Assembly: GCA_964016885.1 (NCBI GenBank) | Contig: OZ024743.1 | Location: forward strand, 332,630,001 to 332,694,000 | DNA: 64,000 nucleotides | Reading direction: 5' to 3' | Source of the DNA: Eledone cirrhosa | Taxonomy: Eukaryota | Part shown: piece by piece, positions 15,450 to 47,600 of the stretch | How positions within the stretch are numbered: the first letter of the stretch is position 1 | Layout: each line of letters starts with the position of its first letter | The notes under the pieces: generated by a model | Databases searched by the model: none | What the model saw: the letters and a program-made list of their open reading frames with translations, nothing else | What the model was told of the DNA's origin: nothing | Translations under genes and position numbers: made by a program

Positions 15450-18400
15450 TCATCATCATCATCATCATCATTTAACGTTCATATTCCACGCTCGCATGGG
15501 TTTGGACGGGAGTTTTCCCACTTGAGACAAGAGTGGTTGTCTTGCTCGCATAGGACTGTCTGGCGGGTTTTCTACGGCTGGATGCCCTTCCTAACACCAA
15601 CCACATTTACAGTGTGGACTGGGAGGTTTTTACCGTGTTGCCTACACGGCCACATTTACAGCGTGGACTGTGTTTTTTTTGTCATGACACCTACACGACC
15701 TCATTTGTTTCGGGCTGGATGTTGCGGTACCAACATAACTTTACATTGAAAGGGGTGGTGTGGATGGGGTGGGGGTAGTGGGACGGGGGTGTATTTTGTT
15801 AGAGGTGCCTACTGACTGTAGTAGGTTTCACTTTGCACTTAGGTAAGGCGGGTCTTCTCTATTACTGTGTAGCGCCAAAGATCTCGGTCCAGTGACATTG
15901 TCTTGGAGAGGTGTAAGTGTGTGAGGTCGGATTTTATCAAGTCGTCCCAGGTTTTTCTGGGTCTGCCTACTCCATGGCTACCGTCTATTTTTATTGCCCT
16001 GCACTTTTTTATACAGCTGTCGTCTTTCATGCGCATCACGTGACCATACCAACGTAGTCTTCTCTCGAGTAAACAACATCTGAACCCTCTTATTTCTAAT
16101 TTCTCCCTTAGTTCGTTTATGCTTTGCCGTTCACGTATATTACTATTACACATCCAGCGGAGCATGCAAGCTTCGTTCCTCTCCAGTCTGCGTATATCCT
16201 CTGCACACAATGCCCAGGTCTCACTGCCATGTAACATTGCTGTTCATATGCAGGCATCATACAGCCTGCCTTTCATTTTTAGAGAGAACCCTTTAGCGCC
16301 CAATAGTGGTATAAGCTCTCTGAACTTTTTCCATCCCGTTCTGACTCTAGCTACTGTACTTTCAGAGCACCCTCCTCCACTGCTGATTTTGTCACCCAGG
16401 TAACGGAAGCTGTCCCCTATTTCTATAGAACCATCTGTGCAATGGAATGAGTTAGTATTCTGTGGGCACTTGCTGCTACTTATTGCACCTGAGCACTGGC
16501 CACATATAAAACATATATTCTTAGTTAGCTTACCTGTGATCCCACTACATCTTTTATGTACCCATACTTTGCATTTGGGACATAAAATGGAGTTTCTACC
16601 TACTCCTTTCCTACACACTGAGCATGGCCATTTCCCAGATGGGACCGGTGCCCTATTTTCCTTCCTACAAACTAGAGCTTTAGTCTTAGACAAGTTAACT
16701 TTAAGGCCTTTTGATTCTAGGCCATGCTTCCATGTTTGGAATTTCTTCTCTAGTTCAGCCATTGATTCAGCTATGAGCGTTAGATCATCTGCGTATAGAA
16801 GTTCCCATGGGCAGCCGGTCTTGAACTCCTCTGTTATAGCCTGAAGGGCAATAATAAATAGTAGGGGGCTAAGGCCAGAGCCCTGATGAACACCAACTTT
16901 TACGCTAAACTCTTCACTATATTCGTTGTTAATTCTAACTTTGCTGACTGTTTCTTTATACATGGCTTGTATAGCTCTCACAAGCCATTCATCAACACCT
17001 AGTTTTCTAAGGGCCCACCAGATAATCGAGCGGGGTACTCTGTCAAAGGCTTTTTCCAAGTCAACAAAAGCTAAGTATAGGGGTTTACTTTTAGCTAGGT
17101 ACTTCTCCTGTAGTTGTCGTACAATGAAAAGAGCGTCTGTTGTACTTTTACCTGACACAAACCCGAACTGCATTTCGTCTAGATCAATTCGCTCTCTGAT
17201 TAGTTGCGCTATTACTTTTTCTGTGACCTTCATGACCTGGTCAATTAATTTAATGCCTCTATAGTTTCCCCTATCTAGGGCATCTCCTTTACCCTTGTAG
17301 CAGTTAATGATGATGCTGCTGCGCCAGTCCTTCAGAACGACCCCATTCTGTATGACTTGGTTTACTATCCGGGTGACCATAGTGTGTCCCGCCGTTCCAG
17401 ATGCTTTCAGCATTTCGGCAACTATTTCCGAAGGCCCAGCCGCCTTGCCCGTCTTCATGTCTTTGATCACCTTACTTATTATACTACCTTCAACTTGCAC
17501 TGCTGGTCCCTCTATTGGGTCGATGTGGGGGAGACTGTCTTTCTCACAATTATTCTCCTCATTTAGTAGCCTTTCGTAGTGACACTTCCAAACTACACAA
17601 TTATTCTCCTCATTTAGTAGCCTTTCGTAGTGACACTTCCAAGCTACCTTCTTATCAGCGTTAGTGATGGCAAGTACACCATCATCATTACGGACACACT
17701 TCTCCCTGACAATATCACTGTTTTCCTTGACAAATTGCCTAGCAATCCTGAACACCTCACATTTTGTTCCTCGCGTTGTAGAACATGCTTGAACTTTCTT
17801 TCCTCTGCTTCCCTTCTTGCGAAGTACACTTGTCTCCTAGCTTCCCTCCTTGCCACTTGATAGTCTTCTCTACTTCCCCCCATCCCACCATGCTTTCCAA
17901 GCCTGCTTTTTGGCCTTGATTGACCTCTCCACCTTACTGTTCCACCACCATGTTACTCTCCTGATGCCTATAGGCCTGCTCCAGCCACAGGTTTCATCTG
18001 TCGCCTTCAGCAGGTTAGCTTTCAGGAATTCCCACTGTTCCTCTCTATTGTACGACTCTAATTGCTCTTCCTTACTATCAAATGCATCAAGTAATATGCT
18101 TTTAAATTTATGACTGGCTGAGGGGTCCTTTAATTTCCATATTTTTCTCCTGAGGATAGTCCTCTTCTGTTGTCGAATACGTCTCGTCCTCACTATGAGG
18201 TCGCTAATTATGAGTCTATGTTGAGACGTGCATTCTTCATGGGGGAGGGATTTAGTGTTTACAACAGACACTCTGTCACGTCTCCTGGTAAGGATATAAT
18301 CTACCTGGCTTGTGTGTTCCCTCGATCTATAGGTGATCAAGTGATTGTCTCGTTTTTTTAAGTTAGTGTTACAGATAGTTAGGTTATTTGCATCACAGAA

Positions 18401-19080
18401 TTCCAGGATTCTGGAGCCTTCCTCATTTCTAGTACCAAACCCATAGCCTCCATGGATTCCGTCATAGCTATCACAATGTTGTCCAACGTGACCATTTAGG
18501 TCGCCAGCAATAATTATATAGCCACTGTCGGTTATTTGGGAGGTAGTGAGCATCAGTGTCTCATAGAAGCTGTCTTTTATAGTGCCGAGCAGTCCGGATT
18601 GGGGTGTGTACGCAGATATTACTGTCACCGTAGTTCTATTGAGGACAAGTCTTATTTTAATTATTCTGTCGTTCACTCTATTTACGTCTATTATCTTATC
18701 TGCCCACTTTTCTGCTACCATGATTCCTACTCCACCCAACCCATTGTCATTTCCCACCCAGAAAAGCTTATAGCATCGTTCTTTACCCACGATGAATCTA
18801 GCAGACCCACCCCTCCACCTGGTCTCTTGAATACAACAAACATCGACCTCCTTACGTTCAAGCATTTCTACAACCTCGTTAGAGCGACCCTTTAAGGTGC
18901 CTGCATTCATGGTACCAACTCTGAAATTTTGGATTGCGTTTGGAGGGTGGGAGCGGTGGGGCGCAGGGGGGGGGGGGGTTATGTTAACCATCCGCGGCCG
19001 AAACAAAGAGGAGGAGTCCTTGCATTCTCGTCCATGAGGTGAATTTGTCTTTATCTTTGGCATTGTCACTGAGCGTCCAG
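15450..19080 (-). mobile_element. Near full-length RTE LINE (subfamily B), disrupted
   Basis: APE domain (VGTMNAGT, CCIQET, GDLNGH, VDYIL) in 17870-19069, RT plus PHD in 16244-17755, C-terminus in 15839-16237. Frameshifts, a stop, and a ~51-bp internal duplication at 17546-17642. (CAT)n tail; (TA)n on both sides. Confidence 0.96.
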
Positions 19081-19114
19081 ATATAGATATATATATATAT
19101 ATATATATATATAC

Positions 19115-19762
19115 CGATAAATTAACGGAGGCATAGGCCCTCGCTATTCCCTGTAAATAATGTGCTAAAAGGAGAAGAAATCCTGAGCTCTTTAAAATAC
19201 AATATGTTGAAAAGGTAACACACCAGAGAGAGATATACAGTGCGCTATCAATAAAACACTATTATTTACAGGGAATAGCGAGGGCCTATGCCTCCGTCAA
19301 TTTATCGTGATATTTTGCTCCTAATAACAGTCTTTCCTATCTCTGTTTGGTTGAGCACACTTCTCTGAGTGGCTTTGGGCTGCCCTTTCTAGCAGTTCGT
19401 CCCTCAGAGGCCAGTGGTACACTGCCCTTAAACACGCTGACTTCTCTCTCCCACGTGTAGCTGGACAGTCACTTTTAAAATTCTCTTAGTGTTGTCTGAA
19501 ATGTATAGCCTTACACACGCTGATGAACCGAGGCTAACCCATTTCTTTCAACAAATTACTGGTGAAACATATCTTTGGATTAGTACGTGTGTTATATAGT
19601 TATAGAGGTATTTATTTACGCTTTAATTTATATTTTTAATTATCGTGTCTATAGTCTGCCTTTCATAGGTTGTAGATTCCATACACTGGTGGTTTTTTCC
19701 TTGTTTTATTGATAGCGCACTGTATATCTCTCTAGTGTGTTACCTTTTCAACATATTGTATA
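19115..19762 (+). mobile_element. Hammerhead-containing non-coding element with inverted junction fragment
   Basis: 19115-19161 is inverted to 19261-19307, and 19197-19257 is inverted to 19702-19762. Inserted in (TA)n. Confidence 0.75.
19513..19592 (+). ncRNA. Type I hammerhead ribozyme
   Basis: ACACACG-CTGATGA-ACCG...TGGT-GAAAC...GTA-CGTGTGT: perfect 7-bp stem I, intact core, GUA site (cleavage after 19585). Confidence 0.8.
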
Positions 19763-19828
<66 letters not shown>

Positions 19829-20000
19829 CAAATATATATATACATATATATATATCCAGGGAGTGTTTCGTGAAGTTACTGTAGGTTCACCCAGGTGAAC
19901 ACTCGATGTAGGTTCATGTCAATAACGAGGTGTAGAGCTAGACAGAGTGTAATATAATAAAAAGGACGATTTGTTAAGCCTTCATTACGTTTATTGATTG

Positions 20001-20920: not shown

Positions 20921-21614
20921 AAGTTAATTTTTAATTTTTAAAATTTTTTTATTTTACGTCTTTCATATAATTGTTCTGCATCCCCCTGCATAGAACCACA
21001 AAGGTACTAAGACATAACATATATATTTGCTAGCATGGGTATACATCTGTATACATATGTTGGTAGATATACTAATTCTCTATATTTATCTCCAAATTAT
21101 TTGTTGAGCGAAACTTGCCAAAATTTACTGCTATGGTTCATGGTAGTAGTTAGGCTCTTGTCATAATACCACCCCACTCCTCACTGATTAACCTCAGTGT
21201 CACGTGATTGATTCTTTAGAATTTGCCACTGACCAAGTAGGCAGTGAATTTTTTCAGTGCCCTGGAATTTAGTCCCCGCTAGCTTTGTTCCATCCACTGA
21301 ATTATTATTTTTATATGGGTTCCTAATGTCCGCGCATTGCCTGGGAACTTAGCAGAGAATAGACTCCCTGATGACGTAAGGACTTCTCTATAGTTACATT
21401 ACGTAACTATATTTATTCCCTTACAGAAACTAATTAGTTGGAGTGAAAATTTTAGTAAGTAAGTTAATTTTTAATTTTTTAAATTTTCTTGTTTTACGTC
21501 TTTCATATAATTGTTCTGCATCCCCCTGCATAAAACCACAAAGGTACTAAGACATAACATATATATTTGCTAGCATGGGTATACATCTGTATACATATGT
21601 TGGTAGATATACTA

Positions 21615-21619
<5 letters not shown>
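20921..21619 (+). mobile_element. Terminally redundant hammerhead element (540-bp unit plus 159-bp repeat)
   Basis: 20921-21079 is nearly identical to 21461-21619. Internal hammerhead; ends at (TA)n. Confidence 0.8.
21363..21444 (+). ncRNA. Type I hammerhead ribozyme
   Basis: ACTCC-CTGATGA-cGTAAGG...[TATAGTTAC attac GTAACTATA]...CCTTACa-GAAA-CTAATTAG-TT-GGAGT. Palindromic stem III, GUU site (cleavage after 21439). Confidence 0.82.
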
Positions 21620-21660
<41 letters not shown>

Positions 21661-21906: not shown

Positions 21907-21970
<64 letters not shown>

Positions 21971-22006
21971 AATATACACGGGTGTGTATGATTGTGTATA
22001 GAAGAT

Positions 22007-22397
22007 TATATTAATAAGAGGAATTCCAACTTTGTCTGATTTACTCGTTTTATTTACAATCCTTTAAAATTTATAATGGTATTATAATGAAATAGTATGA
22101 TAGAATATTAAATGTTAAGTGTTAATTGAACAAGTACTTTCATGCTTTCGCAATCTTCAGGTTCATAATGTGTGGTGACAGTCAAGTTTGCAATTTTCAA
22201 CTGTTGAAAATTGCAAACTTGACTGTCACCACATATTATGAACCTGAAGATTGCGAAAGCATGAAAGTACTTGTTCAATTAACACTTAACATTTAATATT
22301 CTATCATACTATTTCATTATAATACCATTATAAATTTTAAAGGATTGTAAATAAAACGAGTAAATCAGACAAAGTTGGAATTCCTCTTATTAATATA
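22007..22397. repeat. Near-perfect 391-bp palindrome (195-bp arms, centre 22202)
   Basis: Arms are reverse-complementary with one visible mismatch and a 1-nt spacer (ttcaac-t-gttgaa). Confidence 0.95.
22239..22277 (+). ncRNA. Minimal type I hammerhead motif (mirror copy at 22127-22165, minus strand)
   Basis: TGAAC-CTGAAGA-tTGC gaaa GCAt-GAAA-GTAC-TT-GTTCA. Palindromic stem III (AGTACT); non-canonical U-U closing pair in stem II. Confidence 0.65.
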
Positions 22398-22402
22398 TAT
22401 AT

Positions 22403-22884
22403 CACTAGAGCTGATTCCAATTTTCCCAGCCAGCCATCCATCTAATCTACGAAGGTATTTTAGCCTACATATTGTCGTTAATATTATGATGTTCCCTGCT
22501 GTATTAGCGTTAAATTTTCCCTGCTGTATTAGCGATAAATTTTCGAGGGTTTCTCTTAGTAGCTTTTTTCATGACGTTATTATTGTTAATTTTACTGATG
22601 TAGTATTAACTTGGATATTTACCATGCGACCCTCAGTTCCTACCACTAGAGCTGATTCCAATTTTCCCAGCCAGCCATCCATCTAATCTACGAAGGTATT
22701 TTAGCCTACATATTGTCGTTAATATTATGATGTTCCCTGCTGTATTAGCGTTAAATTTTCCCTGCTGTATTAGCGATAAATTTTCGAGGGTTTCTCTTAG
22801 TAGCTTTTTTCATGACGTTATTATTGTTAATTTTACTGATGTAGTATTAACTTGGATATTTACCATGCGACCCTCAGTTCCTAC
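22403..22884 (+). repeat. 241-bp tandem duplication at the 5' end of the intact RTE
   Basis: 22403-22643 is repeated at 22644-22884. Confidence 0.92.
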
Positions 22885-23128: not shown

Positions 23129-26100
23129 ATGAATCTGCGAGCTACCAAGCACCCACGTGAAGCGCCAACCCAGAGACCCTCCCCTACGAGTGTCGACAAA
23201 TGCCCAAAACTCCGAGTTGGTACCATCAATGTAGGCTCAATGAAAGGAAGAGCAGGAGAAATCGTAGAAATGCTAGAGCGAAAGGAAGTTGATGTATGCT
23301 GTGTGCAAGAGACTAGATGGAGAGGAGGGTCTGCTAGAGTCCTTGTAGGAAAAAGCCAGTGCTACAAATTTTTCTGGGTGGGAAATGACGATGGGATGGG
23401 TGGTGTAGGTATACTATTAGCTGACAAGTGGGTAGATAAAGTAATCTCAGTGTACAGGGTAAATGCAAGAATCATTAAACTCAGACTAGTCCTGAATAAG
23501 ACAATTACCACAATAATATCAGCTTACGCACCCCAATCGGGGCTGCCAGACGAACTTAAGGATAGGTTTTACGAGTCCCTAATACACACTACTGCTCTAA
23601 CAGACGACAAGGACTTCCTAATCATTGCAGGAGATTTTAACGGACACGTAGGTAAACACTGCGACGGCTTCAATAGAGTACATGGAGGCCATGGAGTTGG
23701 CACAAGGAATGAGGAAGGATTCAGACTTCTAGAATTCTGCGACGCCAATGACATGTCGATATGTAACACAAACTTTAAAAAACCCGACAACCACCTGATC
23801 ACCTATAGATCAGGGGAGCACTCTAGTCAGTTAGATTTTATCCTCATCAGAGGACGTGACAGATGGACGGTCGTAAACACAAAAGCCTTCCCTAGTGAGG
23901 AATGTACATCCCAACATAGCTTAGTTGTCAGCGACCTCACGGTCAGAACTAGACGAGCCCTGAAACAGAGGCCAACCTGGAGAAGAAAGATCTGGAAGCT
24001 GAAAGTCCCCTCAACCAGTAACAGATTTAAAGATATTTTACTCAACGCCTACGACAGTAAAGAAGAACAGATACAGACATTTAACGTAGAAGAGAACTGG
24101 GAGTTCCTAAAAAATAACTTACTAGAGGCGACGGATGAGGTTTGTGGCTGGAGTAAGACCTCAAGCAGGAGGAGAGTGACTTGGTGGTGGAACAATAAGG
24201 TAGATGAAGCAGTCAAGGCCAAGAGACAGGCATGGAAAGAATGGAAGAACGGGGGGAGCAGGGTACATTACATAGAGACCAAGAGGGAAGCTAGGCGACA
24301 AGTATACTTAGCTAGGAGGGAAGCAGAGGATAGAAAATTCAAGCATGTTTTACAACGTGAGGACCAGAAACAGGAGGTATTCAAGATTGCGAGGCAGTGT
24401 GTCAGAGATAGTTGTGATGTCATTGGAGAGAAGTGTATCCGGAATGATAAAGGTGAGCTTGCCCTCACAAGTGCTGAGAAGAAAGATGCATGGAAGAGTC
24501 ATTATGATAGATTACTAAATGAGGAGAATGCATGGGAAGAAGAGACCCTACCCCACGTAGACCCTATAGAGGGACCAGCAGTACAAGTCAGCGGCAGCGT
24601 AGTAAGTAAGGCAATCAGAGATATGAAGATAGGGAAGGCAACCGGTCCATCGGGTATAGCTGCCGAGATGCTGAAGGCATCTGGGTCTGTAGGTCACACT
24701 ATAACCACACGTATCGTTAACCAGGTAATACTAGAGGGGGCCATACCAAAAGATTGGTGCAGTAGCATCATTGTCAACTGCTACAAAGGTAAAGGCGATG
24801 CACTAGATAGAGGAAACTATAGAGGTATAAAGTTGATGGACCAGGTCATGAAAGTAACAGAAAGAGTTATAGCACAGCTGATTAGGGACCGGGTGAATAT
24901 AGACGAGATGCAATTTGGGTTTGTACCAGGGAAAGGCACCACTGATGCCCTCTTCCTTGTGAGGCAATTACAGGAAAAGTACCTAGCTAAAAGTAAGCCA
25001 CTCTACTTGGCATTTGTCGACCTTGAGAAAGCCTTTGACAGAGTTCCACGTGCAGTAATCTGGTGGGCTCTTAGAAAACTAGGAGTAGATGAATGGCTTG
25101 TGAAAGCTGTACAAGCCATGTATAGGGGAGCAGTCAGCAAAGTTAGGATTAGCAATGAGTATAGCGAGGAATTTAGCGTACAGGTTGGGGTCCACCAGGG
25201 CTCTGTTCTTAGCCCTCTCCTGTTCATCATAGTCCTGCAGGCAATAACGGAGGAGTTTAAGACCGGGTGCCCATGGGAACTCCTGTATGCTGATGACCTC
25301 TCACTCATAGCTGAATCTATGGTAGAACTAGAGAATAAATTCCAAACCTGGAAGCAGGGACTAGAGAGAAAGGGCCTCAAAGTCAACATGACAAAGACTA
25401 AGGTCCTTGTAAGTAGACGAGAAAACAGAACCCAGATCCCCTCAGGGAAATGGCCTTGCTCAGTATGTAGGAAAGGTGTAGGTAGGAACTCCATTCTCTG
25501 CCCCAAATGCAAACAATGGGTACACAAGAGATGTAGCGGGATCTCAGGAAGCTTAATTAAGAATGTAGGATTCACATGCAGCAGCTGTGCTGAAACAGCA
25601 AGCAAACAGCCACAGGAAACAAGTACCACCAATCTCTGGGAGGGCCCTGTAGAAACAGTAGACAGCTTCTGCTACCTAGGTGACCGAATTAGCAACGGAG
25701 GTGGGTGCTCAGAAAGTACAATAACTAGGGTAAGAACGGGATGGAAGAAGTTTAGGGAACTACTACCACTGCTAGCTGCAAAAGGCTTCTCCCTCAGAAT
25801 GAAAGGCAGACTGTATGATGCGTGTATCCGAACAGCGATGTTGCATGGTAGTGAGACCTGGGCGCTGAAGGTGGAAGACTTACGTAGATTAGAGAGAAAC
25901 GAAGCCTGCATGCTCCGATGGATGTGTAACAGTAATATACGTGAACGACAAAGCATAAATGAATTGAGAGAGAGACTGAGCATAAGAGGAATCAAATGCT
26001 GCGTGCAGGAGAGGCGGTTACGCTGGTATGGACATGTGATGCGTATGAAGGATGACAGCTGCATAAAAAGGTGCAGAGCACTAGAAGTTGATGGAAACCG

Positions 26101-29302: not shown

Positions 29303-30144
29303 ATGTGTAACCATAGATGCACTAAATCTGATGAAGTGCTTTTTGATCATAAACCTGCTGGATAATGGCTAGCATATGACTCAACAGCAACAAACTTTGG
29401 CAGTCTGCAAGTGTCATTGGCTTGCCTCAACAATTATTAGAGGGAAACTCCAGCACCCCCTTGTTGTGGCATGCAGAAGTGTAACTAGAGTGTGGTAAGT
29501 ATGGCATGTGCCATGGGCCCCACTTGGACCAGGAGCACTTTCTATTAAAGTCAGATAAGCTATCGTTGGAGAGTGAAAAGAGAAACTTCTTCAGATGTAT
29601 GATCTGTCTTTGATTATCGTGGGTGAAAATCCCTATTGTGACTGGATCATTAAACCATTTATATAAATGTTTAAAAGAAGAAGAAGAAGAAGAAGAAGAA
29701 GAGTATACAAAAACCAAAAAAAAATTCATAGTTTTTAGATAATTTTCAGTATAAATAAAGAAAGAAGTAGAGAGAAAGTGCCGTCCTAACTAGTATCCTC
29801 CAACTAACCCTCTGCTTCTGGATGACAGGATGTAGAATACATTGCACTGGAGGATGGCAAGGGAGACATGCTAGAACAGCCACTCCACCTCACAGGTCTT
29901 GCACCTGCGGGCAGCCAACTCTCTTAGTAGTGAATAGGAATGTGGTCCAGGGGCCAAGAACGCCTTAGCATCACTATCACCATTGTCATCACATGTGACA
30001 CTAAGTGTAAATATCTTCTCCCCTGTAATTTCTTGCTCTTTATTTATTCTATATAAATTGTGTTTATTGTTGTATTTATGTAGATATTCAATACTGTTTA
30101 TACAAAAACAAAACACACTATTAAAGGGAACAAAAAAGGGAAAG

Positions 30145-33100
30145 GACAGACACTAGTCTAAGGTCAGGGACAGACACTACACCCCTGTCTGAGAGAAGGG
30201 ACAAACACTACACCCCAGTCTGAGCAAGACAGACACTACACCCCTGTCTTAGATCAGAGACAGACACTATACCCCAGTCTGAACAAGACAGACACTACAC
30301 TCCAGTCTGAGCAAGACAGACACTACACTCCAGTCTGAGCAAGACATACTCTACACTCCAGTATGAGCAAGACAGACACTGCACTCCAGTCTGAGCAAGA
30401 CAGACACTACACTCCAGTCTGAGCAAGACATACACTACACTCTAGTATGAGCAAGACAGACACTGCACTCCAGTATGAGCAAGACAGACACTACACTCCA
30501 GTCTGAGCAAGACATACACTACACTCTAGTATGAGCAAGACAGACACTGCACTCCAGTATGAGCAAGACAGACACTACACCCAAGTCTGAGCAAGACAGA
30601 CACTACACTCCAGTCTGAGCAAGACATACACTACACTCTAGTATGAGCAAGACAGACACTGCACTCCAGTATGAGCCAGACAGACACTACACCCCAGTCT
30701 AAGCAAGACAGACACTACACCCCAGTCTGAGCAAGACAGACACTACACTCCAGTCTGAGCAAGACATACACTACACTCCAGTCTGAGCAAGACAGACACT
30801 ACACTCCAATCTGAGCAAGACAGACACTACACCCCAGTCTGAGCAAGACAGACACTACACTCCAGTCTGAACAAGACAGACACTACACTCCAGTCTGAGG
30901 GGAGGGACAGACACTACACTCCAGTCTGAGCAAGACAGACATGACACTCCAGTCTGAGCAAGACAGACACTACACTCCAGTCTGAGCAAGACAGACACTA
31001 CACTCCAGTCTGAGCAAGACAGATACTACACCCGAGTCTGAGCAAGACAGACACTACACTCCAGTCTGAACAAGACAGACACTACACTCCAGTCTGAGCA
31101 AGACAGACACTACACCTCGGTCTGAGGGGAGGGACAGACACTCCACTCCAGTCTGAGCAAGACAGACACTACACCCGAGTCTGAGCAAGACAGACACTAT
31201 ACTCCAGTCTGAGCAAGACAGACACTACACCCCAGTCTGAGGGGAGGGACAGACACTACACTCCAGTCTGAGCAAGACAGACACTACACCCAAGTCTGAG
31301 CAAGACAGACAGACACTACACCCCAGTCTGAGCAAGACAGACACTACACTCCAGTCTGAGCAAGACAGACACTACACCCCAGTCTGAGCAGGACAGACAC
31401 TACACTCCAGTCTGAGCAAGACAGACACTACACCCAAGTCTGAGCAAGACAGACACTACACTCCAGTCTGAGCAAGACAGACACTACACCCCAGTCTGAG
31501 CAAGACAGACACTACACCTCAGTCTGAGGGGAGGGACAGACACTCCACTCCAGTCTGAGCAAGACAGACACTACACCCGAGTCTGAGCAAGACAGACACT
31601 ACACCCCAGTCTGAGCAAGACAGACACTACACTCCAGTCTGAGCAAGACAGACACTACACCCCAGTCTGAGCAAGACAGACACTACACCCAAGTCTGAGC
31701 AAGACAGACACTACACTCCAGTCTGAGCAAGACAGACACTACACCCCAGTCTGAGCAAGACAGACACTACACCCCAGTCTGAGCAAGATTGACACTACAC
31801 TACAGTCTGAGCAAGACATACACTACACTCCAGTCTGAGCAAGACAGACACTACACTCCAGTCTGAAGTGAGGGACAGACACTACACTCCAGTCTGAGCA
31901 AGACAGACACTAGACCCCAGTCTGAGCATGACAGACACTACACTCCAGTCTGAGCAAGATAGACACTACACTCCAGTCTGAGCAAGACAGACACTACACC
32001 CCTGTCTGAGCAAGACAGACACTACACTCCAGTCTGAGCAAGACATACACTACACTCCAGTATGAGCAAGACAGACACTGGACTCCAGTCTGAGCAAGAC
32101 AGACACTACACCCAAGTCTGAGCAAGACAGACACTACACTCCAGTCTGAGCAAGACATACACTACACTCCAGTATGAGCAAACAGACACTGCACTCCAGT
32201 ATGAGCCAGACAGACACTACACCCCAGTCTGAAGTGAGGGACAGACACTACACTCCAGTCTGAGCAAGACAGACACTAGACCCCAGTCTGAGCAAGACAT
32301 ACACTACACCCCAGTCTGAGCAAGACAGACACTACACCCCAGTCTGAGCAAGACAGACACTACACCCCAGTCTGAGCAAGATTGACACTACACTCCAGTC
32401 TGAGCAAGACAGACACTACACTCCAGTCTGAAGTGAGGGACAGACACTACACTCCAGTCTGAGCAAGACAGACACTAGACCCCAGTCTGAGCAAGACATA
32501 CACTACACCCCAGTCTGAGCAAGACAGACACTACACTCCAGTCTGAACAAGACAGACACTACACTCCAGTCTGAGCAAGACAGATACTACACCCCAGTCT
32601 GAGTGGAGGGACAGACACTCAACTCCAGTCTGAGCAAGACAGACACTACACCCGAGTCTGAGCAAGACAGACACTATACTCCAGTCTGAGCAAGACAGAC
32701 ACTACACCCCAGTCTGAGAGGAGGGACAGACACTACACTCCAGTCTGAGTAAGACAGACACTATACCCCTGTCTGTGCAAGACAGACACTACACTCCAGT
32801 CTGAGCAAGACAGACACTACACCCAAGTCTGAGCAAGACAGACAGACACTACACCCCAGTCTGAGCAAGACAGACACTACACTCCAGTCTGAGCAAGACA
32901 GACACTACACCCCAGTCTGAGCAAGACAGACACTACACTCCAGTCTGAGCAAGACAGACACTACACCCCAGTCTGAGCAAGATTGACACTACACTACAGT
33001 CTGAGCAAGACATACACTACACTCCAGTCTGAGCAAGACAGACACTACACTCCAGTCTGAAGTGAGGGACAGACACTACACTCCAGTCTGAGCAAGACAG

Positions 33101-36100
33101 ACACTAGACCCCAGTCTGAGCATGACAGACACTACACTCCAGTCTGAGCAAGACATACACTACACTCCAGTATGAGCAAGACAGACACTGCACTCCAGTC
33201 TGAGCAAGACAGACACTACACCCAAGTCTGAGCAAGACAGACACTACACTCCAGTATGAGCAAACAGACACTGCACTCCAGTATGAGCCAGACAGACACT
33301 ACACCCCAGTCTGAAGTGAGGGACAGACACTACACTCCAGTCTGAGCAAGACAGACACTAGACCCCAGTCTGAGCAAGACATACACTACACCCCAGTCTG
33401 AGCAAGACAGACACTACACTCCAGTCTGAGCAAGACAGACACTACACCCCAGTCTGAGCAAGACAGACACTACACCCCAGTCTGAGCAAGATTGACACTA
33501 CACTACAGTCTGAGCAAGACATACACTACACTCCAGTCTGAGCAAGACAGACACTACACTCCAGTCTGAAGTGAGGGACAGACACTACACTCCAGTCTGA
33601 GCAAGACAGACACTAGACCCCAGTCTGAGCATGGCAGACACTACACTCCAGTCTGAGCAAGATAGACACTACACTCCAGTCTGAGCAAGACAGACACTAC
33701 ACCCCAGTCTGAGCAAGACACACACTACACTCCAGTATGAGCAAGACAGACACTGCACTCCAGTCTGAGCAAGACAGAGACTACACCCAAGTCTGAGCAA
33801 GACAGACACTACACTCCAGTCTGAGCATGACAGACACTACACTCCAGTATGAGCAAACAGACACTGCACTTCAGTATGAGCCAGACAGACACTACACCCC
33901 AGTCTGAAGTGAGGGACAGACACTACACTCCAGTCTGAGCAAGACAGACACTAGACCCCAGTCTGAGCAAGACATACACTACACCCCAGTCTGAGCAAGA
34001 CAGACACTACACTCCAGTCTGAACAAGACAGACACTACACTCCAGTCTGAGCAAGACAGACACTACACCCCAGTCTGAGTGGAGGGACAGACACTCAACT
34101 CCAGTCTGAGCAAGACAGACACTACACCCGAGTCTGAGCAAGACAGACACTATACTCCAGTCTGAGCAAGACAGACACTACACTCCAGTCTGAGCAAGAT
34201 AGACACTACACTCCAGTCTGAGTAAGACAGACACTATACCCCTGTCTGTGCAAGACAGACACTACACTCCAGTCTGAGCAAGACAGACACTACACCCAAG
34301 TCTGAGCAAGACAGACAGACACTACACCCCAGTCTGAGCAAGACAGACACTACACTCCAGTCTGAGCAAGACAGACACTACACCCCAGTCTGAGCAAGAC
34401 AGACACTACACTCCAGTCTGAGCAAGACAGACACTACACCCCAGTCTGAGCAAGATTGACACTACACTACAGTCTGAGCAAGACATACACTACACTCCAG
34501 TCTGAGCAAGACAGACACTACACTCCAGTCTGAAGTGAGGGACAGACACTACACTCCAGTCTGAGCAAGACAGACACTAGACCCCAGTCTGAGCATGACA
34601 GACACTACACTCCAGTCTGAGCAAGACATACACTACACTCCAGTATGAGCAAGACAGACACTGCACTCCAGTCTGAGCAAGACAGACACTACACCCAAGT
34701 CTGAGCAAGACAGACACTACACTCCAGTCTGAGCAAGACATACACTACACTCCAGTATGAGCAAACAGACACTGCACTCCAGTATGAGCCAGACAGACAC
34801 TACACCCCAGTCTGAAGTGAGGGACAGACACTACACTCCAGTCTGAGCAAGACAGACACTAGACCCCAGTCTGAGCAAGACATACACTACACCCCAGTCT
34901 GAGCAAGACAGACACTACACTCCAGTCTGAGCAAGACAGACACTACACCCCAGTCTGAGCAAGACAGACACTACACCCCAGTCTGAGCAAGATTGACACT
35001 ACACTACAGTCTGAGCAAGACATACACTACACTCCAGTCTGAGCAAGACAGACACTACACTCCAGTCTGAAGTGAGGGACAGACACTACACTCCAGTCTG
35101 AGCAAGACAGACACTAGACCCCAGTCTGAGCATGACAGACACTACACTCCAGTCTGAGCAAGATAGACACTACACTCCAGTCTGAGCAAGACAGACACTA
35201 CACCCCAGTCTGAGCAAGACACACACTACACTCCAGTATGAGCAAGACAGACACTGCACTCCAGTCTGAGCAAGACAGACACTACACCCAAGTCTGAGCA
35301 AGACAGACACTACACTCCAGTCTGAGCAAGACAGACACTACACTCCAGTATGAGCAAACAGACACTGCACTTCAGTATGAGCCAGACAGACACTACACCC
35401 CAGTCTGAAGTGAGGGACAGACACTACACTCCAGTCTGAGCAAGACAGACACTAGACCCCAGTCTGAGCAAGACATACACTACACCCCAGTCTGAGCAAG
35501 ACAGACACTACACTCCAGTCTGAACAAGACAGACACTACACTCCAGTCTGAGCAAGACAGACACTACACCCCAGTCTGAGTGGAGGGACAGACACTCAAC
35601 TCCAGTCTGAGCAAGACAGACACTACACCCGAGTCTGAGCAAGACAGACACTATACTCCAGTCTGAGCAAGACAGACACTACACCCCAGTCTGAGAGGAG
35701 GGACAGACACTACACTCCAGTCTGAGTAAGACAGACACTATACCCCTGTCTGTGCAAGACAGACACTACACTCCAGTCTGAGCAAGACAGACACTACACC
35801 CAAGTCTGAGCAAGACAGACAGACACTACACCCCAGTCTGAGCAAGACAGACACTACACTCCAGTCTGAGCAAGACAGACACTACACCCCAGTCTGAAGT
35901 GAGGGACAGACACTACACTCCAGTCTGAGCAAGACAGACACTAGACCCCAGTCTGAGCAAGACATACACTACACCCCAGTCTGAGCAAGACAGACACTAC
36001 ACTCCAGTCTGAACAAGACAGACACTACACTCCAGTCTGAGCAAGACAGACACTACACCCCAGTCTGAGTGGAGGGACAGACACTCAACTCCAGTCTGAG

Positions 36101-39100
36101 CAAGACAGACACTACACCCGAGTCTGAGCAAGACAGACACTATACTCCAGTCTGAGCAAGACAGACACTACACTCCAGTCTGAGCAAGATAGACACTACA
36201 CTCCAGTCTGAGTAAGACAGACACTATACCCCTGTCTGTGCAAGACAGACACTACACTCCAGTCTGAGCAAGACAGACACTACACCCAAGTCTGAGCAAG
36301 ACAGACAGACACTACACCCCAGTCTGAGCAAGACAGACACTACACTCCAGTCTGAGCAAGACAGACACTACACCCCAGTCTGAGCAAGACAGACACTACA
36401 CTCCAGTCTGAGCAAGACAGACACTACACCCCAGTCTGAGCAAGATTGACACTACACTACAGTCTGAGCAAGACATACACTACACTCCAGTCTGAGCAAG
36501 ACAGACACTACACTCCAGTCTGAAGTGAGGGACAGACACTACACTCCAGTCTGAGCAAGACAGACACTAGACCCCAGTCTGAGCATGACAGACACTACAC
36601 TCCAGTCTGAGCAAGACATACACTACACTCCAGTATGAGCAAGACAGACACTGCACTCCAGTCTGAGCAAGACAGACACTACACCCAAGTCTGAGCAAGA
36701 CAGACACTACACTCCAGTCTGAGCAAGACATACACTACACTCCAGTATGAGCAAACAGACACTGCACTCCAGTATGAGCCAGACAGACACTACACCCCAG
36801 TCTGAAGTGAGGGACAGACACTACACTCCAGTCTGAGCAAGACAGACACTAGACCCCAGTCTGAGCAAGACATACACTACACCCCAGTCTGAGCAAGACA
36901 GACACTACACTCCAGTCTGAGCAAGACAGACACTACACCCCAGTCTGAGCAAGACAGACACTACACCCCAGTCTGAGCAAGATTGACACTACACTACAGT
37001 CTGAGCAAGACATACACTACACTCCAGTCTGAGCAAGACAGACACTACACTCCAGTCTGAAGTGAGGGACAGACACTACACTCCAGTCTGAGCAAGACAG
37101 ACACTAGACCCCAGTCTGAGCATGACAGACACTACACTCCAGTCTGAGCAAGATAGACACTACACTCCAGTCTGAGCAAGACAGACACTACACCCCAGTC
37201 TGAGCAAGACACACACTACACTCCAGTATGAGCAAGACAGACACTGCACTCCAGTCTGAGCAAGACAGACACTACACCCAAGTCTGAGCAAGACAGACAC
37301 TACACTCCAGTCTGAGCAAGACAGACACTACACTCCAGTATGAGCAAACAGACACTGCACTTCAGTATGAGCCAGACAGACACTACACCCCAGTCTGAAG
37401 TGAGGGACAGACACTACACTCCAGTCTGAGCAAGACAGACACTAGACCCCAGTCTGAGCAAGACATACACTACACCCCAGTCTGAGCAAGACAGACACTA
37501 CACTCCAGTCTGAACAAGACAGACACTACACTCCAGTCTGAGCAAGACAGACACTACACCCCAGTCTGAGTGGAGGGACAGACACTCAACTCCAGTCTGA
37601 GCAAGACAGACACTACACCCGAGTCTGAGCAAGACAGACACTATACTCCAGTCTGAGCAAGACAGACACTACACCCCAGTCTGAGAGGAGGGACAGACAC
37701 TACACTCCAGTCTGAGTAAGACAGACACTATACCCCTGTCTGTGCAAGACAGACACTACACTCCAGTCTGAGCAAGACAGACACTACACCCAAGTCTGAG
37801 CAAGACAGACAGACACTACACCCCAGTCTGAGCAAGACAGACACTACACTCCAGTCTGAGCAAGACAGACACTACACCCCAGTCTGAGCAAGACAGACAC
37901 TACACTCCAGTCTGAGCAAGACAGACACTACACCCAAGTCTGAGCAAGACAGACACTACACTCCAGTCTGAGCAAGACAGACACTACACCCCAGTCTGAG
38001 CAAGATTGACACTACACTACAGTCTGAGCAAGACATACACTACACTCCAGTCTGAGCAAGACAGACACTACAGTCCAGTCTGAAGTGAGGGACAGACACT
38101 ACACTCCAGTCTGAGCAAGACAGACACTAGACCCCAGTCTGAGCATGACAGACACTACACTCCAGTCTGAGCAAGATAGACACTACACTCCAGTCTGAGC
38201 AAGACAGACACTACACCCCAGTCTGAGCAAGACAGACACTACACTCCAGTCTGAGCAAGACATACACTACACTCCAGTATGAGCAAGACAGACACTGCAC
38301 TCCAGTCTGAGCAAGACAGACACTACACCCAAGTCTGAGCAAGACAGACACTACACTCCAGTCTGAGCAAGACATACACTACACTCCAGTATGAGCAAGA
38401 CAGACACTGCACTCCAGTCTGAGCAAGACATACACTACACCCCAGTCTGAGCAAGACAGACACTACACTCCAGTCTGAGCAAGAGAGACACTACACCCAA
38501 GTCTGAGCAAGACAGACACTACACTCCAGTCTGAGCAAGACAGACACTACACCCCAGTCTGAGCAAGACAGACACTACACCCCAGTCTGAGCAAGATTGA
38601 CACTACACTACAGTCTGAGCAAGACATACACTACACTCCAGTCTGAGCAAGACAGACACTACACTCCAGTCTGAAGTGAGAGACAGACACTACACTCCAG
38701 TCTGAGCAAGACAGACACTAGACCCCAGTCTGAGCATGACAGACACTACACTCCAGTCTGAGCAAGATAGACACTACACTCCAGTCTGAGCAAGACAGAC
38801 ACTACACCCCAGTCTGAGCAAGAAATACACTACACTCCAGTATGAGCAAGACAGACACTGCACTCCAGTCTGAGCAAGACAGACACTACACCCAAGTCTG
38901 AGCAAGACAGACACTACAGTCCAGTCTGAGCAAGACAGACACTACACTCCAGTATGAGCAAACAGACACTGCACTCCAGTATGAGCCAGACAGACACTAC
39001 ACCCCAGTCTGAAGTGAGGGACAGACACTACACTCCAGTCTGAGCAAGACAGACACTACACCCCAGTCTGAGCAAGACAGACACTACACTCCAGTCTGAG

Positions 39101-39638
39101 CAAGACAGACACTACACCCCAGTCTGAGCAAGACAGACACTACACCCAAGTCTGAGCAAGACAGACACTACACTCCAGTCTGAGCAAGACAGACACTACA
39201 CCCCAGTCTGAGCAAGACAGACACTACACCCCAGTCTGAGCAAGATTGACACTACACTACAGTCTGAGCAAGACATACACTACACTCCAGTCTGAGCAAG
39301 ACAGACACTAGACCCCAGTCTGAGCATGACAGACACTACACTCCAGTCAGAGCAAGATAGACACTACACTCCAGTCTGAGCAAGACAGACACTACACCCC
39401 AGTCTGAGCAAGACAGACACTACACTCCAGTCTGAGCAAGACAGACACTACACCCAAGTCTGAGCAAGACAGACACTACACCCCAGTCTGAGCAAGACAT
39501 ACACTACACTCCAGTCTGAGCAAGACAGACACTAGACCCCAGTCTGAGCAAGACATACACTACACCCCAGTCTGAGCAAGACAGACACTACACTCCAGTC
39601 TGAGCAAGACAGACACTACACTCCAGTCTGAGCAGACA
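30145..39638. repeat. 28-bp satellite (GACAGACACTACACTCCAGTCTGAGCAA)n, ~9.5 kb
   Basis: Period 28 (tccag at 30301 and 30329). 31-bp and 32-bp variants recur in higher-order patterns. Confidence 0.98.
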
Positions 39639-39823
39639 AAATGGCATAAGTGTTACCATGGAGAATGACCAGAGTTACTTGCTGCAACAGCCACCCCACT
39701 TTAACCCATGGTAGCATGGAAAAATGGACATTAAACATATGATGATGATAATGATGATGTACAAACTAAAATATTGAAATTCTTTATTTGTATATGTTCC
39801 AACAATTTCTCTTTATCTTCCAG

Positions 39824-39862
39824 AATAACACAAAAAAGATTATCAAGGTTACTACTCTTGAG
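39824..39862 (+). CDS. Candidate 39-bp micro-exon (NNTKKIIKVTTLE)
   Basis: Acceptor tttctctttatcttccag and donor GAG|gtaagt. Length is a multiple of 3 and the frame is open. No partner exons identified. Confidence 0.33.
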
Positions 39863-40012
39863 GTAAGTTTTCTACATGTATATTTTCTGAATTCTGAAAG
39901 AATCTTCACACTTTCTACCTGATCAACTTTGCTGTGATTATTGCTTCCCAGTTATATTAATAAAATAAGTAATGTTCCAAATAGACACCTCCATCCTCTG
40001 GCCCTCAAACAT

Positions 40013-41655: not shown

Positions 41656-44600
41656 TACTCTATATATACACTCTATACTCTATATATACACTCTATACTC
41701 TATATATACACTCTATACTCTATATACACACTCTATACTCTATATACACACTTTATACTCTATATACACACTCTATACTCTATATATACACTCTATACTC
41801 TATATATATACACTCTATACTCTCTATATACACTCTATACTCTATATATACACTCTATACTCTATATATACACTCTATACTCTATATACACACTCTATAC
41901 TCTATATATACACACTATACACTATATATACACTCTATACTCTATATATACATTCTATACTCTATATACACACTCTATACTCTATATACACACTCTATAC
42001 TCTATATATACACTCTATACTCTATATACACACTCTATATTCTATATATACACTCTATACTCTATATACACACTCTATACTCTATATACACACTCTATAC
42101 TCTATATATACACTCTATACTCAATATATACACTATATACTCAATATATACACTATATACTCTATATATACACTCTATACTCTATATATACACTATATAC
42201 TCTATATATACACTCTATACTCTATATATACACTCTATATTCTATATACACACTGTATACTCAATATACACGCTATATACTCTATATATACACTCTATAC
42301 TCAATATATACACTCTATATATACACTCTATTCCCAATATATACATTATATACTCAATATATACACTATATACTCTATATATACACAATATACTCAATAT
42401 ATACACTCTATTCTCAATATATACACTATATACTCTATATATACACTCTATACTCAATATATACACTATATACTCAATATATACACTATATACTCTATAT
42501 ATACAATATATACTCAATATATTCACTGTATACACTATATATACACTCTATACTCTATATATACACTATATACTCAATATATACACTCTATACTCAATAT
42601 ATACATTCTATACTCTATATATACACTCTATACTCTATATACACACTCTATACTTAATATACACTCTATACTCTTATACACTCTATACTCTATACTCTAT
42701 ATACAGACTGTATACTCTATATATACACTCTATACTCAATATATACACTCTATACTCAATATATACACTCTATACTCTAAATATACACTCTATTCCCAAT
42801 ATATACACTATATACTCAATATATACATTATATACTCTATATATACACTCTATTCCCAATATATAAACTATATACTCAATATATACACTATATACTCTAT
42901 ATATACACAATATACTCAATATATACACTCTATTCTCAATATATACACTATATACTCTATATATACACTATATACTCTATATATACACTCTATACTCAAT
43001 ATATACACTCTATTCTCAATATATACACTGTATACTCTATATATACACTCTATACTCAATATATACACTCTATACTCAATATATACACTCTATACTCTAT
43101 ATATACACTATATACTCAATATATACACTCTATACTCAATATATACACTCTATTCTCAATATATACACTGTATACTCTATATATACACTATATACTCTAT
43201 ATATACACTCTATACTCTATATATACACTATATACTCAATATATATACTCTATTTTCAATATATACACTATATACTTAATATATACACTATATACTCAAT
43301 ATATACACTCTATTCTCAATATATACACTATATACTCTATATATACACTCTATACTCTATATATACACTCTATGCTCAATATATACATTCTATACTCTAT
43401 ATATACACTCTATACTCAATATATACACTCTATACCCAATAAATACACTCTATTCTCTATATACACACTCTATACTCTATATATACACTCTATACTCTAT
43501 ATATATACACTCTATACTCTCTATATACACTCTATACTCTATATATACACTCTATACTCTATATATACACTCTATACTCTATATACACACTCTATACTCT
43601 ATATATACACACTATACACTATATATACACTCTATACTCTATATATACATTCTATACTCTATATACACACTCTATACTCTATATACACACTCTATACTCT
43701 ATATATACACTCTATACTCTATATACACACTCTATATTCTATATATACACTCTATACTCTATATACACACTCTATACTCTATATACACACTCTATACTCT
43801 ATATATACACTCTATACTCAATATATACACTATATACTCAATATATACACTATATACTCTATATATACACTCTATACTCTATATATACACTATATACTCT
43901 ATATATACACTCTATACTCTATATATACACTCTATATTCTATATACACACTGTATACTCAATATACACGCTATATACTCTATATATACACTCTATACTCA
44001 ATATATACACTCTATATATACACTCTATTCCCAATATATACATTATATACTCAATATATACACTATATACTCTATATATACACAATATACTCAATATATA
44101 CACTCTATTCTCAATATATACACTATATACTCTATATATACACTCTATACTCAATATATACACTATATACTCAATATATACACTATATACTCTATATATA
44201 CAATATATACTCAATATATTCACTGTATACACTATATATACACTCTATACTCTATATATACACTATATACTCAATATATACACTCTATACTCAATATATA
44301 CATTCTATACTCTATATATACACTCTATACTCTATATACACACTCTATACTTAATATACACTCTATACTCTTATACACTCTATACTCTATACTCTATATA
44401 CAGACTGTATACTCTATATATACACTCTATACTCAATATATACACTCTATACTCAATATATACACTCTATACTCTAAATATACACTCTATTCCCAATATA
44501 TACACTATATACTCAATATATACATTATATACTCTATATATACACTTTATTCCCAATATATAAACTATATACTCAATATATACACTATATACTCTATATA

Positions 44601-47600
44601 TACACAATATACTCAATATATACACTCTATTCTCAATATATACACTATATACTCTATATATACACTATATACTCTATATATACACTCTATACTCAATATA
44701 TACACTCTATTCTCAATATATACACTGTATACTCTATATATACACTCTATACTCAATATATACACTCTATACTCAATATATACACTCTATACTCTATATA
44801 TACACTATATACTCAATATATACACTCTATACTCAATATATACACTCTATTCTCAATATATACACTGTATACTCTATATATACACTATATACTCTATATA
44901 TACACTCTATACTCTATATATACACTATATACTCAATATATATACTCTATTTTCAATATATACACTATATACTTAATATATACACTATATACTCAATATA
45001 TACACTCTATTCTCAATATATACACTATATACTCTATATATACACTCTATACTCTATATATACACTCTATGCTCAATATATACATTCTATACTCTATATA
45101 TACACTCTATACTCAATATATACACTCTATACCCAATAAATACACTCTATTCTCAATATATACACTCTATACTCTATATATACACTCTATACTCAATATA
45201 TACACTATATACTCTATATATACACTCTATTCTCAATATATACACTATATACTCAATATATACACTATATACCCAATATATACACTCTATTCTCAATATA
45301 TACACTGTATACTCAATATATACACAATATACTCTATATATACACTCTATACTTTATATATACACTCTATACTCAATATATACACAATATACTCTATATA
45401 TACACTCTATACTCTATATATACACTCTATTCTCAATATATACACTCTATACCCAATATATACACTCTATTCTCAATATATACACTAGATACACAATATA
45501 TACACTATATACTCAATATATACACTCTATTCTCAATATATACACTATATACTCAATATATACACTATATACTCTATATATACACTCTATACTCTATATA
45601 TACACTCTATACTCAATATATACACTCTATACTCTATATATACACTCTATACTCAATATATACACTGTATACTCTATATATACACTCTATACTCAATATA
45701 TACACTATATACTCTATATATACACTATATACTCTATATATACACTCTATTCTCAATATATACACTCTATACTCTATATATACACTCTATTCTCAATATA
45801 TACACTCTATACCCAATATATACACTCTATTCTCAATATATACACTCTAAACTCTATATATACACTCTATACACTATATATACACTATATACTCATTATA
45901 TACACTATATACTCTATGTATACTCTATATACTCAATATATACACTATATACTCAATATATACACTATATACTCAATATATACACTGTATACTCTATATA
46001 TACACTAAATACTCTATATATACACTATATACTCAATATATACACTATATACTGTGAATATACACTATATACTCAATATATACACTCTATTCGAAATATA
46101 TATCCCCGGCATGTCTTTGTATTGTCCCCTTTCTTGTTGCGCCCTTGTGGCTAATAAAGAAATCAATATATACACTATATACTCTATATATACACTCTAT
46201 ACTCTATATACTCTATATATACACTATATACTCTATATATACACTATATAGTATATATATACACTATATACTCTATATATAAACTATATACTCTATATAT
46301 ACACTCTATACTCAATATATATACTCTATACTCAATATACACACTATATACTCAATATATACACGATATACTCAATATATACACTATATACTCTATATAT
46401 ACACTATATACACTATATATTCACTATATACTCTATATATACACTATATACTCTATATATACACTATATACTCTATATATACACTATATACTCAATATAT
46501 ACACAATATACTCAATATATACACTCTATACTCTATATATACACTATATACTCTATATATACACTCTATTCTCAATATTTACACTCTATTCGCAATATAT
46601 ACACTATATACTCTATATATACACTCTATACTCAATATATACAGTCTATTCTCAATATATACACTCTATTCTCAATATATACACTATATACTCTATATAT
46701 ACACTCTATACTCAATATATACACTCTATACTCTATATATACACTATATACTCTATATATATACACTCTATACTCAATATATACACTCTAATCTCAATAT
46801 ATACAATCTATACTCAATATATACACTCTATACTCAATATATACACACTATACTCAATATATACACTCTATACTCAATATATACACTGTATACTCTATAT
46901 ATACACTCTATACTCAATATATACACTGTATAGTCTATATATACACTATATACTCAATATATACACTCTATACTCAATATATACACAATATACTCTATGT
47001 ATACACTCTATACTCAATATATACACTATATACTCTATATATACACAATATACTCAATATATACACTATATACTTTATATATACACTCTATACGCTATAT
47101 ATACACTCTATACTCTATATATACACTCTATACACTATATACACACTCTATTCTCTATATACACACTCTATACTCTATATACACACTGTATACTCAATAT
47201 ACACATTATATACTCTATATATACACTCTATACTCAATATATACACTATATACTCTATATATACACTATATACTCAATATATACACTATATACTCTATAT
47301 ATACACTCTATATTCTATATATACACTATAATCTCTATATATACACTCTATACTCTATATATACACTCTATACTCTATATACACACTGTATACTGAATAT
47401 ACACGCTATATACTCTATATATACACTCTATACTCAATATATACACTCTATACTCTATATACACACTCTATACTCAATATACACTTTATACTCTATATAC
47501 ACTCTATACTCTATACACTATATACACACGGTTTACTTATATATACACTCTATACTCAATATATACACGGTATTCTCAATATATACACTGTATACTCTAT

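What the first reader, a model, noticed from the sequence alone, without database searches (positions are those of the whole stretch)
19115..19762. Hammerhead element whose inverted 5' piece spans the unit's own end-to-start junction
Seen: the plus strand reads A(19261-19307)...hammerhead(19513-19592)...B(19702-19762). The upstream inverted segment, read on the minus strand, is B-x-A (19257 to 19115). So B is followed by A in the template, implying a tandem or circular monomer of roughly 535-540 nt. That is almost the same size as the sequence-unrelated unit at 20921. Inverted partial pLTRs are a known Penelope insertion signature; the size convergence is my inference.
Basis: partly seen in the sequence, partly recalled or inferred. 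Interest (0 to 1): 0.75.

Follow-up and report, generated by a model that had tools for sequence, protein, structure and literature searches.

The report
Two-armed Penelope-type hammerhead retrozyme insertion
This is one truncated copy of an abundant 540-base non-coding repeat that carries a predicted self-cutting RNA motif; its copies sit in TA repeats as back-to-back arms that end at two fixed points, one per arm, likely because a Penelope-type transposon enzyme copied one RNA, possibly a circle, from both sides of a DNA break.

Summary
The element is a head-to-head pair of arms from a 540-nt tandem unit with a type I hammerhead motif; natural arrays show the B-x-A order. But B-x-A is not the RNA's end-to-start joint (that would be the hammerhead cut). 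It is the Penelope 'tail', about 88 nt between two fixed 3' ends that run into (TA)n (450 and 575 exact ends genome-wide). In a sample picked by one end only, 38 of 42 two-armed loci used one site per arm and 1 used the same site twice. The arms of a locus share subfamily alleles (34 mismatches of 627; 242 expected). Best reading: a non-autonomous Penelope-mobilised retrozyme, inserted by reverse transcription from both break ends on one template. A circular template is plausible (about 0.5), not shown. No RNA data, no cleavage test, no helper identified. This copy has one, weakened, ribozyme and cannot release a unit RNA. The equal size of the 20921 unit looks coincidental. The class and the one-sided tail are published, and the scan already noted this pattern in other families of this genome.

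The parts
19081..19114 (.). Left (TA)n target run
   Evidence: Sequence; family ends run into (TA)n
19115..19258 (-). Short arm, 144 nt: unit positions 444-540 then 1-47; its 3' end is site 1 (the tailed end)
19162..19196 (-). x segment (unit 506-540), present only in the short arm, so that arm is not a fold-back copy of the long arm
19257..19261 (.). Head-to-head junction of the two 5'-truncated arms (up to 3 nt shared, 1 extra base)
   Evidence: 28 of 40 junctions scored in the end-anchored sample overlap by 1-12 nt, 2 are blunt, 10 have 2-6 extra nt
19261..19761 (+). Long arm, unit positions 1-505; its 3' end is site 2 (the untailed end)
19513..19592 (+). Predicted type I hammerhead ribozyme; predicted cut after 19585; rare T-to-A at 19582 breaks a stem III pair
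19697..19761 (+). 5' half of the predicted start-site structure: strand 439-447 that pairs with 7-15 of the next unit, hairpin at about 19710-19743, then site 2
   Evidence: folds; predicted only, no compensatory pair found
19762..19857 (.). Right (TA)n target run

Best explanation
This is a truncated two-armed copy of a non-coding 540-nt tandem repeat with a predicted type I hammerhead, likely a non-LTR retrozyme inserted by a Penelope-like element (PLE) enzyme acting in trans. Shown: arms lie head to head, their 3' ends fall at two fixed sites about 88 nt apart and abut (TA)n, a locus nearly always uses one site per arm, and both arms carry the same haplotype. Inferred: a GIY-YIG/RT protein, probably a dimer, cuts both strands of (TA)n. 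One DNA end primes at site 1 and the other at site 2 of the same RNA (or of sister RNAs from one source). Both cDNAs stop at variable lengths and are joined through short microhomology. The template runs through the hammerhead cut site, so it was a re-ligated circle (about 0.5), an uncleaved multimer (about 0.35) or monomers joined by template jumps (about 0.15). This copy has one ribozyme and cannot release a unit-length RNA.
For: Fixed ends: 450 exact site-1 and 575 exact site-2 junctions with (TA)n genome-wide, reversed-pattern controls 0. One site per arm: of 54 distinct loci picked by one end only, 42 are two-armed: 38 use both sites, 1 the same site, 2 have a non-canonical partner end, 1 was unreadable (binomial p 1.5e-10 on 39); the unreadable one later proved to use both sites (L207). 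The same holds in 17 clear loci of the first sample of 29 and in 10 of 12 two-armed loci among 17 new ones picked by the hammerhead. Same template: 34 mismatches in 627 diagnostic-site comparisons between arms, 242 expected; 60 of 62 loci below their expectation. Locus-private variants are shared by both arms in 4 cases and sit in one arm only in 87, which argues against wholesale later homogenisation. 920 units read through the cut site; 41 of 93 arms cross it. One private variant is in all four full units of L201. The genome holds RT+GIY-YIG ORFs in (TA)n. PMC11167929 shows two internal RT start sites that define the tail, cutting and extension of both strands, and a predicted dimer.
Against: No autonomous PLE with a homologous terminal repeat was found among 50 GIY-YIG loci; the only link is one chimeric locus, L089. 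The tail (about 88 nt) is longer than the published 30-40 bp. In vitro, PMC11167929 saw no difference in start site between the two strands and found hammerhead cleavage unnecessary. One locus uses site 2 twice (L145), and 12 of 54 are single-armed. Five loci carry an extra tail-to-tail site-2 piece that the model does not explain. Units 2 and 3 of L201 share three variants that units 1 and 4 lack, so DNA-level duplication also builds arrays. Hammerhead covariation does not exceed shuffles, and the hammerhead fold is not the minimum-energy fold. No sense-strand A-to-G excess was found. The end table was curated by hand.
Confidence: 0.8

Rival explanations
1. Same PLE two-ended insertion, but the template is always a linear, uncleaved multimeric transcript of a genomic array. 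The hammerhead is a passenger and no circle is needed.
For: Hammerhead mutants did not affect insertion by the anole PLE in vitro (PMC11167929). Only 1 of 9 Xenopus elements cleaved (preprint 10.64898/2026.07.22.740005). Arrays of 3-4 units exist as sources (L027, L201, L202). No arm in the end-anchored sample exceeds 790 nt.
Against: Only 2 of 93 arms hold two cut sites, and internal priming with 5' truncation shortens every daughter, so some step must rebuild multimers. A multimer offers several copies of each start site, yet same-site pairs are 1 of 39. The catalytic core is nearly invariant (part of that sample was picked by likeness in this region).
Confidence: 0.35
2. The inverted arm is a fold-back or self-primed copy (for example on an antisense template, as proposed in PMC3846280) or a later local inversion, not a second priming from the other break end.
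For: Some junctions are near-palindromic (L114, L116, L145). A fold-back would also explain the shared haplotype.
Against: In this copy the short arm holds x, which the long arm lacks. Most junctions join unrelated unit positions. Each arm's outer end falls on its own fixed site at (TA)n, which a DNA fold-back would not produce.
Confidence: 0.1
3. Two independent insertions into the same (TA)n run.
For: Nested insertions in TA runs are common here, and the tail-to-tail extra pieces may be of this kind.
Against: There is no TA between the heads, site use is 38 to 1 in favour of one of each, and the arms share haplotypes.
Confidence: 0.03
4. A satellite spread by DNA-level recombination, or a LINE-mobilised SINE-like repeat.
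For: Local unit duplication is seen in L201; pieces of the unit ride inside a larger repeat of about 2.3 kb (L203-L206, L213).
Against: Copies are dispersed, short, 5'-truncated and have two internal fixed 3' ends, with no poly(A) or simple-repeat tail in the unit itself. The pattern matches an ORF-bearing PLE family in the same genome (L105; window 22007-22397).
Confidence: 0.05

Closest known systems
Metazoan non-LTR retrozymes (Cervera and de la Pena 2020, PMC7229834, passages read; Li, Clavereau and Pollet 2026, bioRxiv 10.64898/2026.07.22.740005, parts 1-3 of 5 read)
   Same: Non-coding, low-GC tandem unit with one type I hammerhead per unit; dispersed monomers to multimers; PLEs present in the genome and proposed as mobilisers.
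   Different: The unit (540 nt) is longer than the 220-350 nt units tested in coral and axolotl, though inside the 51-972 nt range of the preprint. Most copies here are truncated two-armed insertions. The passages read do not describe fixed ends, one site per arm or shared arm haplotypes. Circular RNA and cleavage are shown for those species, not here.
Penelope-like elements with inverted pLTR and tail (Craig et al. 2021, PMC8557442, passages; Arkhipova et al. 2013, PMC3846280, passages; Frangieh et al. 2024, PMC11167929, parts 1-2 of 4)
   Same: Inverted 5'-truncated copy at the 5' end, tail often at one end only, two internal RT start sites, (TA)n targeting, hammerhead upstream of the start sites.
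   Different: No ORF; tail about 88 nt rather than 30-40; no homologous autonomous pLTR found; arms can exceed one unit.
L1 twin priming (recalled; one search found no paper applying it to Penelope in its three listings)
   Same: Both target strands prime on one RNA and the cDNAs join by microhomology.
   Different: Here the second priming is at a fixed site, and the arms overlap on the template by up to hundreds of bases.

Membership tests
Non-LTR retrozyme | Tandem non-coding units, each with a type I hammerhead motif | tested here: met
   Arrays of 3-4 units, period 539-540; motif conserved in 50 aligned copies
Non-LTR retrozyme | Low GC and no LTR, PBS or PPT layout | tested here: met
   The unit is about 40% GC (205 G+C of 507 unmasked positions); ends are internal sites running into (TA)n; PBS and PPT were not searched for by a tool
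Non-LTR retrozyme | [quoted passage not shown] | tested here: not met
   Not met by this copy (one motif); met by other family loci such as L027 and L201
Non-LTR retrozyme | Self-cleavage of the RNA | not testable with these tools
   Needs in vitro transcription
Non-LTR retrozyme | Unit-length linear and circular RNAs in tissue | not testable with these tools
   Needs northern blot or raw RNA reads of this organism
Type I hammerhead ribozyme | CUGANGA, GAAA and NUH core with three stems, stem I open | tested here: met
   93.6% of cells paired in 44 distinct copies; slid controls 20-49%; the structure was drawn from these sequences, which favours it
Type I hammerhead ribozyme | Covariation or an Rfam match | tested here: inconclusive
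   Covariation not above shuffles in copies about 95% alike; no Rfam hit
Non-autonomous Penelope-like element | Inverted 5'-truncated copy plus a tail at one end | tested here: met
   38 of 42 two-armed loci
Non-autonomous Penelope-like element | Microsatellite target bias | tested here: met
   only 2 GC-containing continuations after site 1 under a restrictive pattern, both after a short TA run
Non-autonomous Penelope-like element | Sequence shared with the pLTR of an autonomous PLE | tested here: inconclusive
   None in 50 GIY-YIG loci out of 10,597 first-look candidates; one chimera with the 3' region of the L093/L106 family
Autonomous Penelope-like element | RT plus GIY-YIG ORF | tested here: not met
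   The 540-nt unit has no room for one; tblastn hits to PLE proteins were found in only 3 family loci, all in flanks

The most novel reading that the evidence does not exclude
A dimeric Penelope-type enzyme grips one 540-nt RNA circle at a structured element, primes one end of the DNA break at each of two fixed sites, and both reverse transcriptases run round the circle. That would explain the one-sided Penelope tail, the inverted repeat and retrozyme multimers by one mechanism, and it shows in at least two unrelated families inside this window.
Probability: 0.4. Interest if true: 0.72.

Novelty: new member of a known kind. Interest (0 to 1): 0.47.

Why it matters
Which enzyme moves animal retrozymes, and whether through circles, is proposed but not demonstrated in the papers read. 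How PLE inverted repeats and tails form is called unresolved in PMC8557442. This family gives exact start sites, a target and a counted pairing rule, which a purified-PLE assay like that of PMC11167929 could test directly. The locus itself is a dead copy with no sign of host function, and the scan has noted the same pattern in many other families of this genome.

Tried and rejected
Rfam at gathering and E<=10 thresholds: no hammerhead hit; the weak miRNA-family matches are TA runs and a palindrome. Sequencing runs: no RNA holder listed. Laying four contig sets of unrecorded kind gave family variation only; no listed piece spans the locus. A-to-G editing scars, a lead from note e1-8803865: no sense-strand excess in 100 loci (67 A>G vs 91 T>C, p 0.14). 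A pile-up of 5' ends at the cut site: 9 observed vs 4.05 expected at unit 326-345 in the sample (p 0.02, window chosen after looking). Genome-wide, 93 non-read-through hits included about 30 small indels, and by eye about 13 true junctions fell at 326-328 against about 12 at 335, a TATATA microhomology; 920 read through. So no sharp peak. My idea that the A in one site-2 end form came from primer wobble was dropped: it is a subfamily allele present inside units. Helper search: BLAST of the unit against 50 GIY-YIG loci gave one family insertion (L035) and no pLTR homology. Likeness to the L092 hammerhead repeat did not beat shuffles (46 vs maximum 55). The L089 chimera had no second example among 40 scored candidates of 2181. 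Target-site duplications cannot be read in (TA)n. Scan search by sequence found nothing. Paper searches that found no description of one-site-per-arm pairing or of this repeat. Supplements were not read; Fig. S2 of PMC11167929 on genomic ends may bear on this.

Full report
1. Observation. The minus-strand arm 19258-19115 reads B (62 nt, 95% to 19702-19761), a 35-nt x that the plus arm lacks, then A (94% to 19261-19313). The plus arm 19261-19761 holds a type I hammerhead motif at 19513-19592 with GUA at 19583-19585. Both outer ends run into (TA)n. Rfam does not recognise the motif.

2. The family. A search of the window's own 3-Gb genome gave 2737 first-look candidates, of which 40 were scored; best hits are 89-96% identical. 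L027 is a natural array with period 540, and I used one of its units as the coordinate system (position 1 = window 19261; cut site 327/328). B-x-A is the template order, contiguous in 67 loci. The host looks like a cephalopod; that label is recalled and appears in scan notes, and comes from no call of mine.

3. Two fixed 3' ends. Nearly all arms have variable 5' ends and one of two 3' ends, at about 47-53 (site 1) or 500-505 (site 2), followed by (TA)n. Exact patterns count 450 and 575 such ends, with reversed controls at 0. The sites are about 88 nt apart across B-x-A. Longer TA-like words elsewhere in the unit are rarely used as 3' ends (L025, L117), so microhomology alone does not choose the site (inference). 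The region is predicted to fold (z -2.17); the alignment fold shows one-sided but no two-sided changes. This matches the Penelope tail, which PMC11167929 ties to two internal RT start sites and PMC8557442 describes as 30-40 bp and often at one end only. So B-x-A is the tail region, not the RNA's joint.

4. One site per arm. To avoid selecting for the window's layout I took the first 30 hits of each end pattern (60 hits, 54 distinct loci after dropping 6 duplicates) and tabulated them by hand. 42 are two-armed and 12 single-armed. Of the 42, 38 use site 1 on one arm and site 2 on the other, 1 uses site 2 twice (L145, read through a small deletion), 2 have a non-canonical partner end (L117, L141) and 1 ran off the locus; p = 1.5e-10 on 39 against an even split. 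The last one proved to use both sites when refetched (L207). L152 was scored as site 2 through an inferred deletion. Extra tail-to-tail site-2 pieces in five loci were not counted as arms. The unrelated family at 20921 obeys the same rule: 17 of 19 two-armed loci among 26 distinct use both of its sites, none uses one twice, 2 are non-canonical. So do the palindrome at 22007-22397 and ORF-bearing L105 of an autonomous PLE family, each tailed on one arm only.

5. One template. At subfamily-diagnostic positions the arms of a locus disagree 34 times in 627 comparisons against 242 expected from other loci; 39 of 62 loci show no mismatch and 60 of 62 lie below expectation (pairwise versions). Variants private to a locus are shared by both arms 4 times and lie in one arm 87 times, as expected for a common template followed by separate decay rather than continual gene conversion. 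This cannot separate one RNA molecule from two sister RNAs of one source. Junctions overlap by 1-12 nt in 28 of 40 cases, are blunt in 2 and carry 2-6 extra bases in 10.

6. What the template was. 41 of 93 arms cross the predicted cut site and 2 cross it twice. Genome-wide 920 units read through it, with no sharp pile-up of 5' ends there (tallied by eye). Cleaved linear monomers were therefore at most a minor template. For a circle: sources with two ribozymes are rare, truncation shortens daughters, same-site pairs are almost absent, and one private variant runs through all four full units of L201. Against: no arm in the sample exceeds 790 nt, L201 also shows a DNA-level duplication, and the anole enzyme used uncleaved RNA. 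I put the circle at about 0.5. No A-to-G signature was found.

7. The ribozyme. The named structure pairs in 93.6% of cells across 44 distinct copies, but covariation does not beat shuffles. Core positions are nearly invariant. In the L027 unit the hammerhead fold is within 0.7 kcal/mol of the best fold; in this copy it is 7.5 kcal/mol worse, in part because of a rare T-to-A at 19582. Activity is untested. With one ribozyme this copy cannot release a unit RNA.

8. The helper. The genome has many GIY-YIG matches (10,597 candidates, 150 scored), including RT+GIY-YIG ORFs in (TA)n. None of 50 loci fetched shares a terminal repeat with the unit. In L089 the site-1 end joins directly, without TA, to about 300 nt of the 3' region of the L093/L106 family. 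It is a single case and only a lead.

9. Size convergence. The 20921 unit is 540 nt, unrelated in sequence, and has its own hammerhead motif. Other hammerhead pairs lie 459 and 511 nt apart, and scan notes list 310-615 nt units. A coincidence is the simpler reading.

10. Novelty. The class, the PLE link as a proposal, the inverted copy and the one-sided tail are in print. I found no account of counted one-site-per-arm pairing or shared arm haplotypes in seven searches; most subscription papers and all supplements were unseen. My reading was written before I opened the scan's notes. Those notes report the same pattern for other families of this genome; they are unchecked and not independent support. 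They prompted the editing test and the search for a shared start signal, both negative or inconclusive. Verdict: a new member of a known kind with clear mechanistic footprints; interest 0.47.

Noticed in passing
window 20921-21629: Second, unrelated 540-nt hammerhead repeat family (motif at 21368, self-complementary short stem III; 3365 first-look candidates). It has two fixed ends about 110-120 nt apart, and 17 of 19 two-armed loci use one of each.
   Followed up: partly
window 21965-22397: Near-perfect palindrome made of two terminal repeats of an autonomous PLE family (L094, L095, L100, L104, L105, L109), each with a minimal hammerhead; a roughly 40-nt AC-rich tail is on the left arm only.
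   Followed up: partly
L089:1277 (G000:C4:93382831-93382951): Chimera: site-1 end joined directly to the 3' region of the L093/L106 PLE family; a possible helper.
   Followed up: partly
L093:1988-5062: Uninterrupted 1025-aa RT+GIY-YIG ORF in (TA)n with a tail of about 37 nt; my motif scan found no hammerhead in its terminal repeat.
   Followed up: partly
L112, L135, L139, L152, L169: An extra truncated piece ending at site 2 sits tail-to-tail with a site-2 end across a short TA run; no clear site-1 equivalent was seen. Unexplained.
   Followed up: no
L203-L206, L213: Pieces of an older subfamily of the unit are embedded in a larger repeat of about 2.3 kb with shared boundaries at several loci.
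   Followed up: partly
L092:6500-7420; L101:8068-8579: Further hammerhead pairs, 459 and 511 nt apart.
   Followed up: no
window 13863 (+) and 5944 (-): Two more hammerhead-like motifs.
   Followed up: no
window 15877-18932 and 23203-25998: Two diverged copies (70-80% alike) of a long repeat in opposite orientation around the finding, probably LINE-like (class is a guess).
   Followed up: no
window 22400-22881: Exact 241-nt tandem duplication right after the palindrome, without a hammerhead motif.
   Followed up: no
window about 30000-40000 and 42000-50000: Two long blocks of strongly skewed composition (GC skew -0.25 with AT skew +0.42; GC skew about -0.9), probably satellites.
   Followed up: no
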